Assembly: GCA_026982635.1 (NCBI GenBank)
Contig: JALSGR010000229.1
Location: 1 to 51,080 of the forward strand
DNA from: Methylothermaceae bacterium
GTDB lineage: Bacteria > Pseudomonadota > Gammaproteobacteria > Methylococcales > Methylothermaceae
Length of the DNA: 51,080 bases
Reading direction: 5' to 3'
Shown here piece after piece: positions 762 to 8,643 of this stretch. The notes below the pieces were generated by a model. The model was not told the origin of the DNA. It was given only the letters and a program-made list of their open reading frames with translations, and made no database searches. Each line of letters begins with the position of its first letter. Position 1 is the stretch's first letter. Made by a program: the position numbers and the translations under genes.

Positions 762-2107
762 AGATCGACCGCCACATTCACCGGCAGATCCGGCTGCAAC
801 ACCTGATTTTCACCGCCCTGTTCCTGACCCTGGTAGGGCTGCTGGCATGGTTGTCGCAGCGCTATTACACCGAATGGGACTGGACGGCGGCGGGACGCCA
901 CACCCTGTCGGAAGCCAGCCGCAAGGTCCTGCGGACTCTGGAAGGGCCGGTCACCGTCACCGCCTACGCCCGGGAGGACAATCAGCTGCGCGAACGCATC
1001 CGCGAGCTGGTGCTGCCCTATCAGCGCAGCAAGGCCGATCTGAAACTGGTGTTCGTGAATCCGGATCTACATCCGGAAAAGGTGCGGGAACTGGGGATCA
1101 CCATGGATGGGGAACTGGTCATCGACTATCACCAACACACGGAAAAAATCCACGACCTGAGCGAAACCGCCCTGACCAACGCCTTGGTGCGCCTGGCGGG
1201 AAGCGGCGAACAGAAAGTCGTCTTCGTCACCGGTCACGGTGAACGCAGCCCCGAAGGGGATGCCAACTTCGATCTGGGACGGTTCGGCGACAATCTGCGC
1301 CAACGGGGCGTGACGATCGTCACCTGGAATCCGGTCAAGGACCCGCAACTGCCGCAAGACGCTTCCCTGGTGGTGATCGCCAGTCCCCGGACGACCTACC
1401 TGCCCGGGGAAGTGAAATTACTGAAACAGTACCTGGAGAAAGGGGGCAACCTCTGGTGGATGGCGGAACCCGGCGACCTTCAAGGCCTTGAGCCTTTGGC
1501 GGAGGCCCTCGGGATCCGCTGGCTTCCCGGGGTGGTGGTCGATCCCACCGGCAGCGCCCTCGGCATCGGCGACCCGACCTTCGCCCTGGTGGTGGAATAC
1601 CCGCCCCACCCCATCACCCGCAACTTTCAAAATCTGACTCTGTTCCCACAGGCCCGGGCCCTGGCGCGCACGGACGACGAAAATTACGTCGCCGTCCCTT
1701 TCCTGCGCTCCCTGCCCCGGGCCTGGACCGAGCGCGGCCCGCTGGAAGGCGAGATCCGCTTCGATCCGGATCAGGGGGAACAGGAAGGCCCCCTGACGCT
1801 GGGTTTGGCTCTGACCCGGGAACGGGACCAGGATCGGGAGCAGCGGATCGTCGTCATGGGTGACGGGGACTTTCTCGCCAACACCTACCTCGGCAACGGC
1901 GGCAATCTCGATCTGGGCCTCAACATCGTCCAGTGGCTCAGCCACAACGACCGCCTGATCGACATACCCGCCAAAACCGCGCCCGACACCCAGTTGCAAT
2001 TGTCTTCCCTGGCGCTGGTGCTCATCGGCCTGGGGTTTCTCGTGGTGCTCCCCCTGACGCTGCTGAGCACCGGCCTGGTGATCTGGTGGCGCCGGAGGCG
2101 GATCTGA
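758..2107 (+). CDS. GldG-family ABC auxiliary component
   Basis: N- and C-terminal TM helices; WDWT..RHTLSEAS, TGHGE and GDGDF..N motifs. Confidence 0.85.
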   Translation: MKIDRHIHRQIRLQHLIFTALFLTLVGLLAWLSQRYYTEWDWTAAGRHTLSEASRKVLRTLEGPVTVTAYAREDNQLRERIRELVLPYQRSKADLKLVFVNPDLHPEKVRELGITMDGELVIDYHQHTEKIHDLSETALTNALVRLAGSGEQKVVFVTGHGERSPEGDANFDLGRFGDNLRQRGVTIVTWNPVKDPQLPQDASLVVIASPRTTYLPGEVKLLKQYLEKGGNLWWMAEPGDLQGLEPLAEALGIRWLPGVVVDPTGSALGIGDPTFALVVEYPPHPITRNFQNLTLFPQARALARTDDENYVAVPFLRSLPRAWTERGPLEGEIRFDPDQGEQEGPLTLGLALTRERDQDREQRIVVMGDGDFLANTYLGNGGNLDLGLNIVQWLSHNDRLIDIPAKTAPDTQLQLSSLALVLIGLGFLVVLPLTLLSTGLVIWWRRRRI

Positions 2108-2955
2108 TGAGCGGCTGGCGTCCGATCGTCGTTCTATTGGTGCTGGTGACCGGCCTGGGCGCGTGGGTCGCCTGGCTGCAAAGCCGCCCCGAGCCGGCGG
2201 AACCGAAACTGACCGATCTCGATCCCCAGGCGATCGCCCGGATCACGGTCAAATACCAGGACCAGGTACTTCGCTTTCAGCGCCACGACGACGGCTGGCG
2301 GATGGAGCAGCCCTACACGGCGCCGGCCGATCCCTACCGGATCGAACAAATCCTCGAGCTGCCACGGGCCAAAAGCCACGCCCGCTATGCCATCCCCCCC
2401 GACGACTGGCCCCGCTTCGGACTGGCTCCCCCGAAGGCGGAAATCGAGCTCGACGGCCATCGGTTTCGTTTCGGCCGGCAGAATCCCATCGACTTCCGCC
2501 GCTACGTGCAGGTGGACGAAAACGCGGTCCACCTGATCGACGACACCCTGTTCCACGCGCTCACTTCGCCGGCCAGCGACTGGCTGGACACCCGGCTGCT
2601 TCCGGCCGGTGCCGCCATCCGGGGCCTGACAGTGCCGGGCTGGCGAGTCCAAATGTCGGCCAAGGGAAGCTGGCGTTCGGAGCCGGAACTCGACCCAGCC
2701 GTATTGCAACGCTGGGTCGATGAATGGCGCAACGCCCGGGTGCTCCGCATCATGTCCCACCCGGCTCCGCCGCCCAAGGACAAACCGGCCATACGGGTCG
2801 AGCTGGAAGACGGCGCGCTGACCTTCGTCCTGCTGGAACGGGAACCGGAAGTGATCCTGTTGCGCCCGGATCTAAAGCTCGCCTACCACTTCTACCGCGA
2901 AACCGGGGTCCGTCTGCTACAACCGCCGGAAACCGAGCAAGCACCGGACGCCTGA
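2107..2955 (+). CDS. DUF4340 domain protein
   Basis: Start reassigned to ATG 2107 (TGATG overlap with upstream stop); N-terminal membrane anchor; GWRM..P..APAD and FGL..P motifs; usual third gene of this operon. Confidence 0.75.
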   Translation: MSGWRPIVVLLVLVTGLGAWVAWLQSRPEPAEPKLTDLDPQAIARITVKYQDQVLRFQRHDDGWRMEQPYTAPADPYRIEQILELPRAKSHARYAIPPDDWPRFGLAPPKAEIELDGHRFRFGRQNPIDFRRYVQVDENAVHLIDDTLFHALTSPASDWLDTRLLPAGAAIRGLTVPGWRVQMSAKGSWRSEPELDPAVLQRWVDEWRNARVLRIMSHPAPPPKDKPAIRVELEDGALTFVLLEREPEVILLRPDLKLAYHFYRETGVRLLQPPETEQAPDA

Positions 2956-5989: not shown

Positions 5990-6526
5990 TCACTCACGCA
6001 CCGGCCGCTTGTCCAGTTTACGCTGCAGGGTGCGCCGGTGCATTCCCAGGGCGCGGGCGGCGGCAGAGATATTGCCGCCGTGCTCCATCAGGACCTTCTG
6101 CAGATACTCCCATTCCAGGCGCTTGACCGACAGCGGCCGTTCCTTGATCGCCACGTTGGGATCCCCGTCTTCCTTGTGAAGGGCGGCGACCACCTCGTCG
6201 GCATCGGCGGGCTTGGTGAGGTAATGGGTCGCCCCGAGCTTGATGGCCTCCACCGCCGTCGCGATGCTGGCGTATCCGGTCAGGATCACGATCCGGGTGT
6301 TGGCGTCGAGCGCCTTGAGCGCCTTGACCAGGGCAAGCCCGGAGTCGTGGCCGATGCGCAAATCGATCACGGCGTACTCGGGAGTCAACTTCTCCGCCAG
6401 ACGCAAGCCCTCGTTCAGATTCAGCGCGACGCTGACCTCGAAGCCACGCTTGATCAGGGCGCGCTCCAACACCTGGCAAAACACCTCGTCGTCGTCGACT
6501 AACAACAATCGTGGATGGTCACTCAT
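5990..6526 (-). CDS. regA: RegA/PrrA/ActR-family response regulator
   Basis: LTGYASIATAVEAIKLGA..YLTKP and WEY...GNISAAARALGMHRRTLQRKL Fis-type HTH. Confidence 0.93.
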   Translation of the reverse strand: MSDHPRLLLVDDDEVFCQVLERALIKRGFEVSVALNLNEGLRLAEKLTPEYAVIDLRIGHDSGLALVKALKALDANTRIVILTGYASIATAVEAIKLGATHYLTKPADADEVVAALHKEDGDPNVAIKERPLSVKRLEWEYLQKVLMEHGGNISAAARALGMHRRTLQRKLDKRPVRE

Positions 6527-7844
6527 GTCTTTCCCGGCAATTCAACAAAGGCAAACGGATGCGGGTACAGAATCCACCCTGGGACAAACGCTCCATGTCG
6601 ATCTCCCCCCCCAGACGCTCGATGGTGGCGTAGGCCAGGAACAGGCCGACGCCCAAACCCTGTTTCTTGGACGCCACCGGCTGGCGTCCCAGTTGGCGGC
6701 GCAGATTGGGTTCGATCCCTGGCCCCTGGTCGATCACGACCAGCTCCAAACGCCGGCGATTCCACCAGGCCCGTAGGACGACCGGTTCGCTGGAGACATC
6801 GGCGGCATTGTTGAGAATGTTCAGCAGCGCATGGATCAAGGTGTGTTCCGCCAGGATTCGGGCCTGACCGTCGGTCTCGGGTGCGATTTCCAGCTGCAAC
6901 TTGCCATGCGGCCGCTGTTGGCGCCAGCGGCTGACCAACTTTTCGAGAAAACGCCGCACCTCCTCCATATGACCGGCTTCCGCCCGGACCTGCCCCGCCG
7001 AGGCGGACATGATCGACAACGCCGTTTTGCAGCGTTCGATCTGATCCTTGAAAATCAGCAACCGCTGGCGCAATTCGGCATGTTCCTCGCCGCCGTAATC
7101 CTCCAGCAGTTCCTGCAACAGGATCGCCATGGTTCCCAGGGGCGTGCCCATCTCGTGGGCCGCGCCCGCCGCCAGGGTTCCCAGGGCCACCAGGCGCTCG
7201 TCGCGCAGGGCCTGCTCGCGAATCTCGGCCAGTCTGCGCTCCCGTTCCCGCAGGGTGTTGGCCATCTCCACCACGAAGTAGGCCACCAGCCCGGCGCTGA
7301 AGACGAAACCCACCCAGGTTCCGAAGGCGTGGAGCTCGAAACGCTGTCGCTTTCCTGCTTCCGGCGGCAACAGGGTCGGATCGACCACTTCGGCGACCGG
7401 AATGGAGGGCAGCGGATGATAATGAAAGATCAGAACGGTATAGCCGCCGCAGGTCAACAGCATCATATACCAGGTGTAGCGCTGCGGCAGAACCGTGGCG
7501 GTAATGATCAAGGGCAGCAACAAGAACCAGGCCATGGGATTGGTGGCCCCGCCGGCGAAATACAACAAGGCCGTGATGATCACGGCGTCCAGACACAGAT
7601 GGGCGAACAACTCCCATTCCGCCACCGGATACTCGTGCTGCAGCCGATACCAGGTGAGACAATTCAAGGCCACCACCAGGGCGATGATGCCCCACAGGGG
7701 ATCGGTATTCAGGGGCACGCCGATTCCGTACACCGTCACCAGAATGATCACCACTTCGGCGACGATGAGAAGATTGCGCAGCACGAACAACCAATGGAGG
7801 TTCCGGCGGGCGGCCTCGGCGGAATGAAGCGGAATCTGCAGCAT
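6519..7844 (-). CDS. regB: RegB/PrrB/ActS-family redox sensor histidine kinase
   Basis: TM domain with GGATNP quinone-binding motif; AAGAAHEMGTPL H-box; DQIERC redox Cys; GLGVGLFL G2 box. Confidence 0.93.
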   Translation of the reverse strand: MLQIPLHSAEAARRNLHWLFVLRNLLIVAEVVIILVTVYGIGVPLNTDPLWGIIALVVALNCLTWYRLQHEYPVAEWELFAHLCLDAVIITALLYFAGGATNPMAWFLLLPLIITATVLPQRYTWYMMLLTCGGYTVLIFHYHPLPSIPVAEVVDPTLLPPEAGKRQRFELHAFGTWVGFVFSAGLVAYFVVEMANTLRERERRLAEIREQALRDERLVALGTLAAGAAHEMGTPLGTMAILLQELLEDYGGEEHAELRQRLLIFKDQIERCKTALSIMSASAGQVRAEAGHMEEVRRFLEKLVSRWRQQRPHGKLQLEIAPETDGQARILAEHTLIHALLNILNNAADVSSEPVVLRAWWNRRRLELVVIDQGPGIEPNLRRQLGRQPVASKKQGLGVGLFLAYATIERLGGEIDMERLSQGGFCTRIRLPLLNCRERHE

Positions 7845-7868
7845 CACTATCCGGGGTCTATCCCCTGG

Positions 7869-7914
7869 TGCGACAATTTGTCACATGGCGAAGTTCGCCA
7901 CGACCCACTAGACT
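7869..7914 (+). promoter_or_regulatory. RegA-type box 1 with -10 element
   Basis: TGCGACAATTTGTCACA (7869-7885), 23 nt, then TAGACT (7909-7914); fits the GCG(G/A)C-N5-GTCGC style of RegA/RegR boxes with one mismatch. Confidence 0.7.
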
Positions 7915-7920
7915 ATTGAT

Positions 7921-8004
7921 CAAGGTAATTGCTCGATTACCTCCTGTCTCACATCGATTTCCTCCTTGATGCGCAGGGAGTTCCTCTCCCTGCCGATTTC
8001 TTTT
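7921..8004 (+). ncRNA. Candidate sRNA 1 (~85 nt, anti-SD motifs)
   Basis: Hairpin AGGTAATT/GATTACCT; CCTCCT at 7940 and 7961; terminator GCAGGGAG-TTCCT-CTCCCTGC then CGATTTCTTTT; no credible ORF; ends inferred. Confidence 0.55.
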
Positions 8005-8021
8005 GCCCGGTTTTTGCCTCG

Positions 8022-8068
8022 ATGCGACAATTTGTCGCATTCCAATCACTCAAGATCGCTGCTATGCT
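8022..8068 (+). promoter_or_regulatory. RegA-type box 2 with extended -10
   Basis: Palindrome ATGCGACAA-T-TTGTCGCAT (8022-8040); TGnTATGCT with TATGCT at 8063-8068; same box-to-(-10) spacing as unit 1. Confidence 0.75.
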
Positions 8069-8074
8069 GCAATC

Positions 8075-8159
8075 GCGTTCGGCAAAACCGAACTGTTGCA
8101 TGACAGTAGTGCAATACTCCTCCTCTTTGACAGCAGGGAAAAATCCCTGCTGTTTTTTT
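8075..8159 (+). ncRNA. Candidate sRNA 2 (~85 nt, anti-SD motif)
   Basis: Hairpins 8077-8093 and 8094-8116; single-stranded CTCCTCCTCTTT; terminator ACAGCAGGGA-AAAA-TCCCTGCTGT plus T-run, oriented for + strand. Confidence 0.6.
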
Positions 8160-8643
8160 ATGGGTAGCCGATCGCCCGCAGCCCGGCCCGGGCGCACGCC
8201 ACGTCCAACATGGCTCCCGGCGCCCCGCCGACGCCGATACCACCGACAATGCGGTCGCCGGCCTTGATGGGAAGACCACCGCCGAGAATCAGGATATCCT
8301 CGCTCATGTCCCGCAACCCCTGAACCTGGGGCTTTCGGGCCAGCAACTGGGCCAGTTCGTGGGTGGGTTTGCGCAGACTCAAAGCGGTATAGGCCTTCCG
8401 ACGACTGCTGTGAACCGTATGGGGACCGGCATCGTCGTCCCGCAGCAAAACCTGCAGATTGCCGCCGACATCCACCACCGCCACGGAAACCGCATATCCC
8501 TGCTGGCGGCACGACCGCAACGCCGCCTGCGCCGCTTTCAGGGCCTCTGTCGTGGACAGACTGGCGTGTTCGGACAGTTTCGCCGCTTCAGCACCCACAA
8601 CGCCGATCAATCCCAACAGCAACAAACACCAACGGATTCTCAT
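8158..8643 (-). CDS. GlcG/HbpS-family heme-binding protein, exported
   Basis: Start MRIRW at 8643 with AGGAGG RBS; signal peptide; VSVAVVD.GG, RKAYTA, GGGLPI and GGIGVGGAPG motifs. Confidence 0.88.
   Translation of the reverse strand: MRIRWCLLLLGLIGVVGAEAAKLSEHASLSTTEALKAAQAALRSCRQQGYAVSVAVVDVGGNLQVLLRDDDAGPHTVHSSRRKAYTALSLRKPTHELAQLLARKPQVQGLRDMSEDILILGGGLPIKAGDRIVGGIGVGGAPGAMLDVACARAGLRAIGYP

What the first reader, a model, noticed from the sequence alone, without database searches (positions are those of the whole stretch)
7869..8159. Tandem pair of RegA-box-driven anti-SD small RNAs divergent from regBA
Seen: the gap holds two units 154 bp apart with the same layout. Each has a near-identical palindrome (TGCGACAATTTGTCACA at 7869; TGCGACAATTTGTCGCA at 8023), exactly 23 nt of spacer, a -10 hexamer (TAGACT; TATGCT), then ~85 nt with 5' hairpins, a TCCTC..TTGA C-rich tract and a terminator sharing GCAGGGA/TCCCTGC followed by T-rich sequence on the + strand. 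Both flanking genes are on the minus strand, so these + strand promoters and terminators serve no protein gene. Known: RegA/PrrA/RegR bind GCG-N-GTCGC-type palindromes, and redox two-component systems drive sRNAs elsewhere (PrrA-PcrZ in Rhodobacter; ResD-RoxS and SrrA-RsaE with C-rich seeds in Firmicutes). Inference: two sibling sRNAs form a repressive arm of RegBA in this lineage. I do not recognise them as a described family.
Basis: partly seen in the sequence, partly recalled or inferred. Interest (0 to 1): 0.85.

Follow-up and report, generated by a model that had tools for sequence, protein, structure and literature searches.

The report
Small RNAs aimed at methane monooxygenase
Two predicted small RNA genes beside the redox-sensing regBA operon of a methane-eating bacterium belong to an undescribed family found across its order; one matches the start of the methane monooxygenase gene pmoB over 20 bases, so they likely let RegA turn down the cell's main copper enzyme.

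Summary
Two box + 23-nt + −10 + hairpin + C-rich seed + terminator units sit divergent from regB. Both are kept in 12 of 12 same-genus genomes with DNA there, and the promoter pattern occurs in 111 of 141 genomes of the order (control 0). The box tracks RegA: 39 of 43 box-positive against 6 of 37 box-negative genomes carry regA. New here is the target. Unit 1 pairs 20 bp over the ribosome-binding site and start codon of pmoB, ranking 1 of 2059 genes. Across 24 genera each genome's RNAs fit its own pmoB and pmoA better than other genera's (p 0.0015 and 0.0002), with compensatory changes; pmoC and seven control genes show no such signal. Unit 2 has no standout mRNA but a conserved 17-nt complementary RNA elsewhere, a likely sponge. 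Outside the order the box drives metal-uptake genes, some copper-specific. No Rfam family matches. Transcription, RegA binding and repression are untested; a published regA deletion raises pmoA/pmoB only about 1.3-fold. Best reading: a RegA-activated sRNA family that represses pMMO translation, possibly to spare copper or oxygen.

The parts
5990..6526 (-). regA, response regulator (predicted activator)
   Evidence: Best NCBIfam hit ActR/PrrA/RegA NF033791, E 1e-55, below the equivalog cut-off; receiver + Fis-type HTH
6519..7847 (-). regB, sensor kinase; start at 7847 (GTG) or 7844 (ATG)
   Evidence: Best NCBIfam hit ActS/PrrB/RegB NF033792, E 2e-66, below cut-off
7869..7885 (.). Box 1, RegA-type palindrome, centred about -44 of unit 1 and 22-25 nt upstream of regB
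   Evidence: 14/15 to the published RegA motif, 13/15 to RegR; conserved in 12 of 12 genus loci
7909..7914 (+). -10 hexamer of unit 1
   Evidence: 23 nt after the box (24 in three relatives)
7921..8005 (+). Predicted sRNA 1 (ends estimated)
   Evidence: Fold z -4.2; conserved
7930..7950 (+). 5' hairpin arm complementary to the pmoA SD and first codons (G000:C282:231-257)
   Evidence: Plain duplex rank 3 or 5 of 2147; rank 79 of 2059 once opening energy is charged
7952..7971 (+). Seed pairing 20 bp (2 G-U) with the pmoB SD, spacer and start codon (G000:C282:1026-1045)
   Evidence: Rank 1 of 2147 and 1 of 2059
7973..8005 (+). Intrinsic terminator 1, weak U-tract; read-through into unit 2 possible
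8023..8039 (.). Box 2, perfect palindrome
   Evidence: 15/15 to the published RegA motif, 14/15 to RegR
8063..8068 (+). Extended -10 of unit 2
8075..8160 (+). Predicted sRNA 2, three hairpins with a single-stranded seed
   Evidence: Fold z -5.8; 99% of cells paired in 11 genomes
8098..8108 (+). Conserved hairpin/loop complementary to the second site of the candidate sponge (G000:C158:2065-2075, -)
8115..8131 (+). C-rich seed; 17-nt perfect complement in the candidate sponge (G000:C158:2103-2119, -)
   Evidence: Only 17-nt complement in the genome outside the locus
8129..8160 (+). Intrinsic terminator 2
8158..8643 (-). Convergent HbpS-like gene (neighbour, varies outside the genus)
   Evidence: PF03928; start from own gene call

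Best explanation
The two units are likely RegA-activated, Hfq-type small RNAs that are predicted to block translation of particulate methane monooxygenase: unit 1 is complementary to the pmoB ribosome-binding site and start codon over 20 bases. Step 1 (inferred): phosphorylated RegA binds the palindrome at about -44 and activates a sigma-70 promoter lacking a good -35. Step 2 (predicted): 85-nt terminated RNAs are made with an exposed C-rich seed. Step 3 (complementarity and covariation shown, repression inferred): the seed covers the SD and start of pmoB, and a second arm or sibling covers pmoA, while pmoC is spared, so PmoA/PmoB synthesis is cut without shutting the pmoCAB promoter. Step 4 (inferred): unit 2 is a broader anti-SD sibling, held in check by a separately transcribed sponge RNA. 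Step 5 (least certain): the same box turns on regB and metal-import or copper-delivery genes, so the circuit would shift copper and oxygen from pMMO to respiration when electron flow to oxygen is limited.
For: Both units in 12 of 12 genus genomes with DNA upstream of regB; units in 10 of 17 other-family regB loci. Promoter pattern in 111 of 141 order genomes, reversed control 0; 138 terminated units in 82 genomes, 123 with a C/U-rich seed, median 93 nt. RegA in 39 of 43 box-positive and 6 of 37 box-negative class genomes; regB inside 11 of 29 box loci; the box faces regB itself at the same spacing in 7 order genomes. Unit 1 against 2059 own-called genes: pmoB -20.7 kcal/mol, next -14.1, mean -1.6, sd 2.5. 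Cognate versus non-cognate test on 30 genomes: pmoB p 0.0015 (0.017 within family, 24 genera), pmoA p 0.0002 (0.013, 23 genera); pmoC, atpE, atpF, atpH, atpA, groES, groEL and hemerythrin p 0.17-0.92. Helices of 12 bp or more: pmoB 14 of 30, the six atp/groE genes 0. pmoB was the best of 7-9 genes in 23 of 30 genomes. Lineage-matched changes in G005/G013, g12 versus g17, G116, g5 and g11. Seed-complement patterns hit only the sRNA and pmoB in 5 of 5 g12 and 5 of 5 g17/g38 genomes. Published regA deletion on methanol: pmoB 1.27x (BH p 0.007), pmoA 1.31x (0.004), pmoC 1.11x, mxaF 1.15x, mxaI 1.13x (not significant) (PMC13274454 Table S5 rows). hfq is present.
Against: No transcript, binding or repression was measured here. 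In families f3 and f8 and genera g13, g24, g30 and g18 the own pmoB fits no better than other genera's; three genus members (G007, G008, G011) pair only 8-10 bp. pmoB has a long SD, which favours any anti-SD seed. Unit 2 has no standout mRNA: pmoB ranks 30, hemerythrin 61. The pmoA arm is in a hairpin and drops to rank 79 with opening cost. The regA-deletion effect is small, from two replicates, not significant on methane (1.30x, 1.42x), and pmo transcripts fall about 6-fold on methanol with or without regA. That paper ties RegA to iron uptake, not copper. Only 4 of 76 box-driven proteins scanned pass a copper-specific NCBIfam cut-off, and 1 passes a siderophore-receptor cut-off. pMMO consumes quinol, so repressing it when the pool is reduced is not obviously useful. 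Structural covariation is weak (1 of 21 pairs; 59 of 500 shuffles as high). Patterns were built from the sRNA-pmoB overlap, so only their uniqueness is informative. Genomes are related; the permutation was at genus level, not on a tree.
Confidence: 0.66

Rival explanations
1. The RNAs are real and RegA-driven but act as broad anti-SD repressors of many strong ribosome-binding sites; pmoB is one target among many or a by-product of its long SD.
For: Unit 2 shows a flat target list, 26 genes below -10 kcal/mol. Several lineages pair only through the SD core. In g5 a secreted protein of unknown family has a longer match than pmoB.
Against: The lineage-matched signal is confined to pmoB and pmoA; unit 1's top hit is separated by 6.6 kcal/mol.
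Confidence: 0.15
2. The pairing tunes subunit ratio or processing of the pmoCAB message rather than lowering pMMO: binding between cistrons would set cleavage or stability.
For: pmoC is spared while pmoA and pmoB are matched; the regA-deletion effect on mRNA is small.
Against: The helices cover SD and start codon, the usual geometry of translational repression (established knowledge); mRNA rises slightly, not falls, without regA.
Confidence: 0.08
3. The boxes exist to autoregulate regB, and the divergent transcripts are by-products stopped by terminators that insulate the neighbouring gene.
For: Box 1 lies 22-25 nt from the regB start; the box faces regB in other genomes; terminator 2 abuts the convergent gene's stop.
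Against: Many units lie away from regB, in tandem arrays of 2-3. The seed is invariant while flanks drift. U-tracts are on the + strand. A complementary RNA is conserved in 13 of 14 genus genomes.
Confidence: 0.04
4. A regulator other than RegA, for example a metal-sensing factor, reads the palindrome.
For: 4 of 43 box-positive genomes gave no regA hit; G037 has a unit but no regB hit; published RegA motifs are degenerate; box-driven genes are mostly metal uptake.
Against: 39 of 43 versus 6 of 37 co-occurrence; physical linkage to regB in distant families; no box-promoter in three regB-less genomes.
Confidence: 0.05
5. The C-rich tracts are SD sequences of small genes on the minus strand, such as a short His/Cys peptide opposite unit 2.
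For: A TTG-started frame follows the minus-strand SD in 9 of 12 genus loci.
Against: Its length varies from 10 to 24 codons, the start is lost in G004 and G013, SD spacing is short, and promoter and terminator face the other way.
Confidence: 0.02

Closest known systems
PcrZ (PrrA-linked sRNA of Rhodobacter sphaeroides; abstract of PMC3672276)
   Same: A RegA/PrrA-family regulator drives a trans-acting sRNA.
   Different: No Rfam gathering-level match in the window. Targets there are photosynthesis genes in an incoherent loop; here pmoB/pmoA in gammaproteobacterial methanotrophs, in 1-4 copies, often beside regB.
PrrF1/PrrF2 and RyhB iron-sparing sRNAs (passages of PMC4211561)
   Same: Tandem siblings; predicted to repress a dominant metalloenzyme while uptake genes are switched on.
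   Different: Fur-repressed and aimed at iron proteins; these are predicted RegA-activated and aimed at a copper enzyme. No sequence match.
OmrA/OmrB, AbcR1/AbcR2, csRNAs (passages of PMC4211561), NmsRa/b (search listing PMC5362039)
   Same: 80-100-nt sibling sRNAs, often tandem; control by a two-component system or adjacent regulator and anti-SD seeds are recalled, not seen in the passages.
   Different: Different regulators, taxa and targets; the two units here share only seed and terminator.
ChiX/SroB (RF00368)
   Same: Unit 2 has a similar layout and seed (27.7 bits, E 0.12); ChiX also has a decoy RNA (recalled).
   Different: Below the gathering score of 44; ChiX is enterobacterial, constitutive and targets chiP (recalled).
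RegB/RegA of Methylomonas sp. DH-1 (PMC13274454; abstract, introduction, methods, part of results, discussion and supplement rows read)
   Same: Same two-component system in the same group of methanotrophs.
   Different: The main text has no occurrence of sRNA, small RNA, non-coding, motif, pmoA or pmoB; it reports feo as the direct target and leaves indirect effects unexplained.

Membership tests
Trans-acting anti-SD bacterial sRNA | Own promoter and intrinsic terminator in an intergenic region | tested here: met
   (sequence only)
Trans-acting anti-SD bacterial sRNA | Conserved single-stranded seed complementary to a target initiation region | tested here: met
   Unit 1 to pmoB; unit 2 has a seed but no standout mRNA
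Trans-acting anti-SD bacterial sRNA | No conserved reading frame | tested here: met
Trans-acting anti-SD bacterial sRNA | Conserved structure with covariation | tested here: inconclusive
   99% paired but 1 of 21 pairs compensatory; unit 1 alignment too gapped
Trans-acting anti-SD bacterial sRNA | Expressed, Hfq-bound, represses its target | not testable with these tools
   hfq present; function needs experiments
RegA/PrrA/RegR regulon | Site fits published motifs | tested here: met
   Box 2 15/15 RegA, 14/15 RegR; box 1 14/15 and 13/15; motifs are degenerate
RegA/PrrA/RegR regulon | Site co-occurs with regA | tested here: met
   39 of 43 versus 6 of 37
RegA/PrrA/RegR regulon | RegA binds and activates | not testable with these tools
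   Needs EMSA/ChIP and a mutant
ChiX/SroB RF00368 | Score at or above gathering threshold | tested here: not met
   27.7 versus 44 bits
Any Rfam 15 family | Gathering-level match | tested here: not met
   Window: only three tRNAs; 0 in 20 family loci; 0 for the sponge locus
Metal-sparing sRNA (RyhB/PrrF logic) | Represses an abundant metalloenzyme | tested here: inconclusive
   Complementarity to pmoB/pmoA shown; repression untested
Metal-sparing sRNA (RyhB/PrrF logic) | Induced by limitation of that metal | not testable with these tools
   Indirect only: box-driven MbnP, TonB copper receptor, HMA-DsbD-cupredoxin genes
sRNA sponge | Separate non-coding transcript with a long conserved complement to the seed | tested here: met
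   17 nt, invariant core in 13 of 13 aligned, own promoter and terminator
sRNA sponge | Lowers sRNA activity in vivo | not testable with these tools
   Needs experiments

The most novel reading that the evidence does not exclude
Gammaproteobacterial methanotrophs grafted a small-RNA arm onto a RegBA copper-supply regulon: a copper-sparing response, the copper counterpart of RyhB/PrrF, that throttles PmoB and PmoA translation while copper import and delivery to oxidases rise, tuned by a dedicated sponge RNA. It would be a missing post-transcriptional piece of pMMO control and of the copper switch.
Probability: 0.35. Interest if true: 0.95.

Novelty: new variant of a known kind. Interest (0 to 1): 0.86.

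Why it matters
pMMO is the main biological route of aerobic methane oxidation and the largest copper sink of these cells (established knowledge). No native RNA regulator of it turned up in the searches made. The finding names the RNAs, the promoter, the target bases and compensatory changes, so a reporter test in a tractable methanotroph is direct. It also gives a sharp RegA site for Gammaproteobacteria, and a handle for raising pMMO in methane bioconversion strains.

Tried and rejected
No RNA holder was listed for window 7400-8600; this is no evidence either way. Earlier scan notes: nothing. The generic sigma-70 scan found no promoter, as expected for activator-dependent promoters. A full interaction model with bulges timed out; a contiguous-helix model replaced it. 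Hemerythrin as a target: no cognate signal (p 0.17), rank 61, and it falls rather than rises in the regA mutant on methane (noisy). Missing pmoA in genus g16 looked like counter-evidence, but pmoB pieces were found in 4 of 5 genomes, in 3 at or near contig ends. pmoB starts could not be recovered for G001, G003, G006, G010, G012. No sRNA-like unit was seen behind the box in 29 loci outside the order. The extra g5 target stayed unnamed. No covariance model was built; the family is too heterogeneous for one alignment. Paper searches cover open-licence PMC and bioRxiv only. Table S5 of PMC13274454 was held cut and seen by row search; 3 of 11 parts of Table S6 were read.

Full report
Observation. 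The RNAs fold at z -4.2 and -5.8. With one mismatch allowed the palindrome occurs three times in the genome. The left neighbours are regB and regA (best NCBIfam families, both below the equivalog cut-offs); the right neighbour is a convergent HbpS-like gene. The genome carries pmoA, pmoB, pmoC and hfq. I infer the order is Methylococcales because like units occur in named Methylobacter, Methylomicrobium, Methyloglobulus and Methyloprofundus records.

Conservation. Of 14 genus genomes, 12 have DNA upstream of regB and all 12 carry both units; one contig ends there and one has no regB hit. Ten of 17 regB loci from other families carry one or more units, one has a box without -10, six have none. 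The exact promoter pattern occurs in 111 of 141 order genomes, the reversed control in none (150 of 219 matches were listed and I fetched part of them). Of 171 matches examined, 135 were auto-called with a terminator. A laxer rule, minus three false terminators I dropped by eye, gave 138 units in 82 genomes; one known unit (G013 unit 2) was missed. 123 of 138 have a C/U-rich seed before the terminator; family f8 mostly does not (2 of 5). Genomes carry one to four units, often in tandem and often away from regB. Unit 2's three helices are 99% paired in 11 genomes but too invariant to show covariation.

Who reads the box. Box 2 fits the published RegA motif 15/15 and RegR 14/15 (passages of PMC5506826), but these motifs are loose (passages of PMC4263372). 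The stronger test is distribution. In a class sample 48 of 401 genomes have the pattern, control 2 (the tally includes one unpublished genome, G177, not used further). RegA was found in 39 of 43 box-positive and 6 of 37 box-negative genomes, regB lies inside 11 of 29 box loci, and in seven order genomes the box faces regB at the same spacing. Three genomes without a regB hit had no match; G037, 90% complete, had one. Outside the order the box leads to proteins and no sRNA-like unit was seen in 29 loci. Of 93 downstream frames from the GTDB scan, the 48 longest were scanned: 20 TonB-dependent receptors, 2 MbnP, DUF1775, PepSY-TM, TonB, four unrelated, 19 unassigned. One passes the TonB copper-receptor cut-off, two MbnP, one the siderophore-receptor cut-off. 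A further 28 gave one MbnP and weak TonB hits. In this genome the only other perfect box drives an HMA-DsbD-cupredoxin protein, followed by what looks like a heavy-metal P-type ATPase (by eye). The regulon is metal uptake with a copper lean, not proven copper-specific.

The target. Against my own gene calls (2204 genes; starts approximate), the unit 1 linker ranks pmoB first of 2147 by duplex energy and first of 2059 with opening costs on both RNAs: -20.7 kcal/mol, next -14.1. The helix is 20 bp over SD, spacer and start codon. The 5' arm ranks pmoA 3 or 5 of 2147 by plain duplex but 79 with opening costs. In relatives the bases flanking the SD core differ by lineage and the RNAs follow: a spacer change in G005/G013 is matched (14 bp); g12 and g17 differ in the spacer and each has a 14-bp fit; in G116 the SD itself changed and one sibling matches it; g5 and g11 match on the 5' side (12 bp). 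At genus level, own pairs beat foreign pairs for pmoB (56 genomes, 24 genera, p 0.002; within family 0.019) and pmoA (p 0.0003; 0.042) but not pmoC (p 0.53). On a 30-genome panel the result held, while atpE, atpF, atpH, atpA, groES, groEL and hemerythrin (24 genomes) gave p 0.17-0.92; helices of 12 bp or more formed with pmoB in 14 of 30 genomes and with none of the atp or groE genes. Genome-wide, the seed complement hit only sRNA copies and pmoB in ten f10 genomes, and additionally one site in four of five g5 genomes, of which one was opened and is a gene start; the patterns were built from the overlap, so only the lack of other hits counts. Against: f3, f8, g13, g24, g30 and g18 show no own-target advantage, three genus members pair only 8-10 bp, and relatedness is only partly controlled.

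Published data. In Methylomonas sp. DH-1, deleting regA raised pmoB 1.27-fold and pmoA 1.31-fold on methanol (BH p below 0.01) but pmoC, mxaF and mxaI only 1.11-1.15-fold (not significant); on methane pmoA and pmoB rose 1.3-1.4-fold, not significant (PMC13274454 Table S5 rows). The direction and the sparing of pmoC fit; the size is small, and the 6-fold drop on methanol does not need regA. The paper links RegA to iron uptake and mentions no sRNA. I did not check DH-1's own sequence for the units.

Unit 2 and a candidate sponge. Unit 2 has no standout mRNA. Its only 17-nt complement in the genome lies in a non-coding stretch on contig C158 (about 1998-2150, minus strand), with a conserved sigma-70 promoter, A/AAC-rich tracts, a second site matching unit 2's middle hairpin, and a terminator. 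It was found in 13 of 14 genus genomes, with the seed complement invariant in the 13 aligned, and weakly in four genomes of other families that also carry the complement. Converging on it is a third RNA with the same seed under a promoter without the box. Neither matches Rfam at gathering level. I read it as a sponge; this is inference.

Mechanism. Shown: anatomy, conservation, box-regA association, complementarity and lineage-matched fit to pmoB and pmoA. Inferred: RegA activation, transcription, Hfq use, repression by SD occlusion, sponge action. Open: the signal. A reduced quinone pool activates RegB (PMC13274454); both oxygen and copper shortage would slow terminal oxidases and could produce it. 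Cutting pMMO would then free copper and oxygen for respiration. The objection is that pMMO also drains quinol. I put the core model at 0.66 and the copper-sparing form at 0.35.

Known relatives and novelty. No Rfam 15 family reaches its threshold in the window or in 20 family loci; ChiX is the nearest at 27.7 of 44 bits. It works like PrrF/RyhB and other tandem sibling sRNAs (passages of PMC4211561) and like PcrZ under PrrA (abstract), but is not a member of any. Ten literature searches listed no native sRNA acting on pmoCAB and no RegA-driven sRNA in methanotrophs; a 2026 review mentions only synthetic sRNAs (passages of PMC13348613). The library lacks most subscription papers, so absence is not proven. 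Verdict: real feature, new sRNA family of a known mechanistic kind, with a specific and testable link to methane monooxygenase.

Noticed in passing
G000:C158:1998-2150 (-); L396-L408: Conserved non-coding RNA with a 17-nt complement to unit 2's seed, a second matching site and A/AAC-rich tracts; likely sponge. A 16-bp RegA-like palindrome sits just upstream of its -35 in 8 of 13 genomes.
   Followed up: partly
G000:C158:about 1887-1982 (+): Third RNA with the same C-rich seed, convergent with the sponge, under a promoter without the box but with another conserved upstream motif; seen in 10 genus genomes and in G051, G067.
   Followed up: partly
G000:C132:3844-3889 (-); L345: Third perfect box drives an HMA-DsbD-cupredoxin gene followed by a probable heavy-metal P-type ATPase; a small HMA protein lies upstream.
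   Followed up: partly
L031-L151, L417-L446: The same box and spacing define a sharp RegA-type promoter before TonB receptors, MbnP, PepSY-TM and DUF1775 genes in Nitrosomonas, Nitrosospira, Gallionella, Herbaspirillum and others; G251 and G341 have 22 sites each.
   Followed up: partly
L204-L207, L433, L437-L440: regB starts 3-7 nt after the box-linked -10, suggesting leaderless, autoactivated regB.
   Followed up: no
L354:797-1492 (-): Secreted 232-aa protein of no known family whose start region pairs about 18 bp with the g5 sRNA.
   Followed up: partly
G000:C224:2968 onward (+); L389:1515-2117: Secreted Met/His-rich protein whose SD region matches unit 2 over 12 bp in G000 and G013.
   Followed up: no
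L447, L448, L451, L454: In several f10 genomes the box drives a 230-250-aa protein with an HEAGH metallopeptidase-like motif and no NCBIfam hit in the one scanned.
   Followed up: no
L193 (G038:C1:338350-338394): A box lies about 1.6 kb upstream of a pmoA-family gene, driving an unassigned secreted protein away from the monooxygenase operon.
   Followed up: no
G000:C16 (-) and C297: Two different pmoC starts exist apart from the pmoAB contig; the C16 copy encodes a divergent 273-aa PmoC.
   Followed up: no
L194, L192, L220, L219, L189: Family f8 units keep promoter and terminator but mostly lack the C-rich seed.
   Followed up: no
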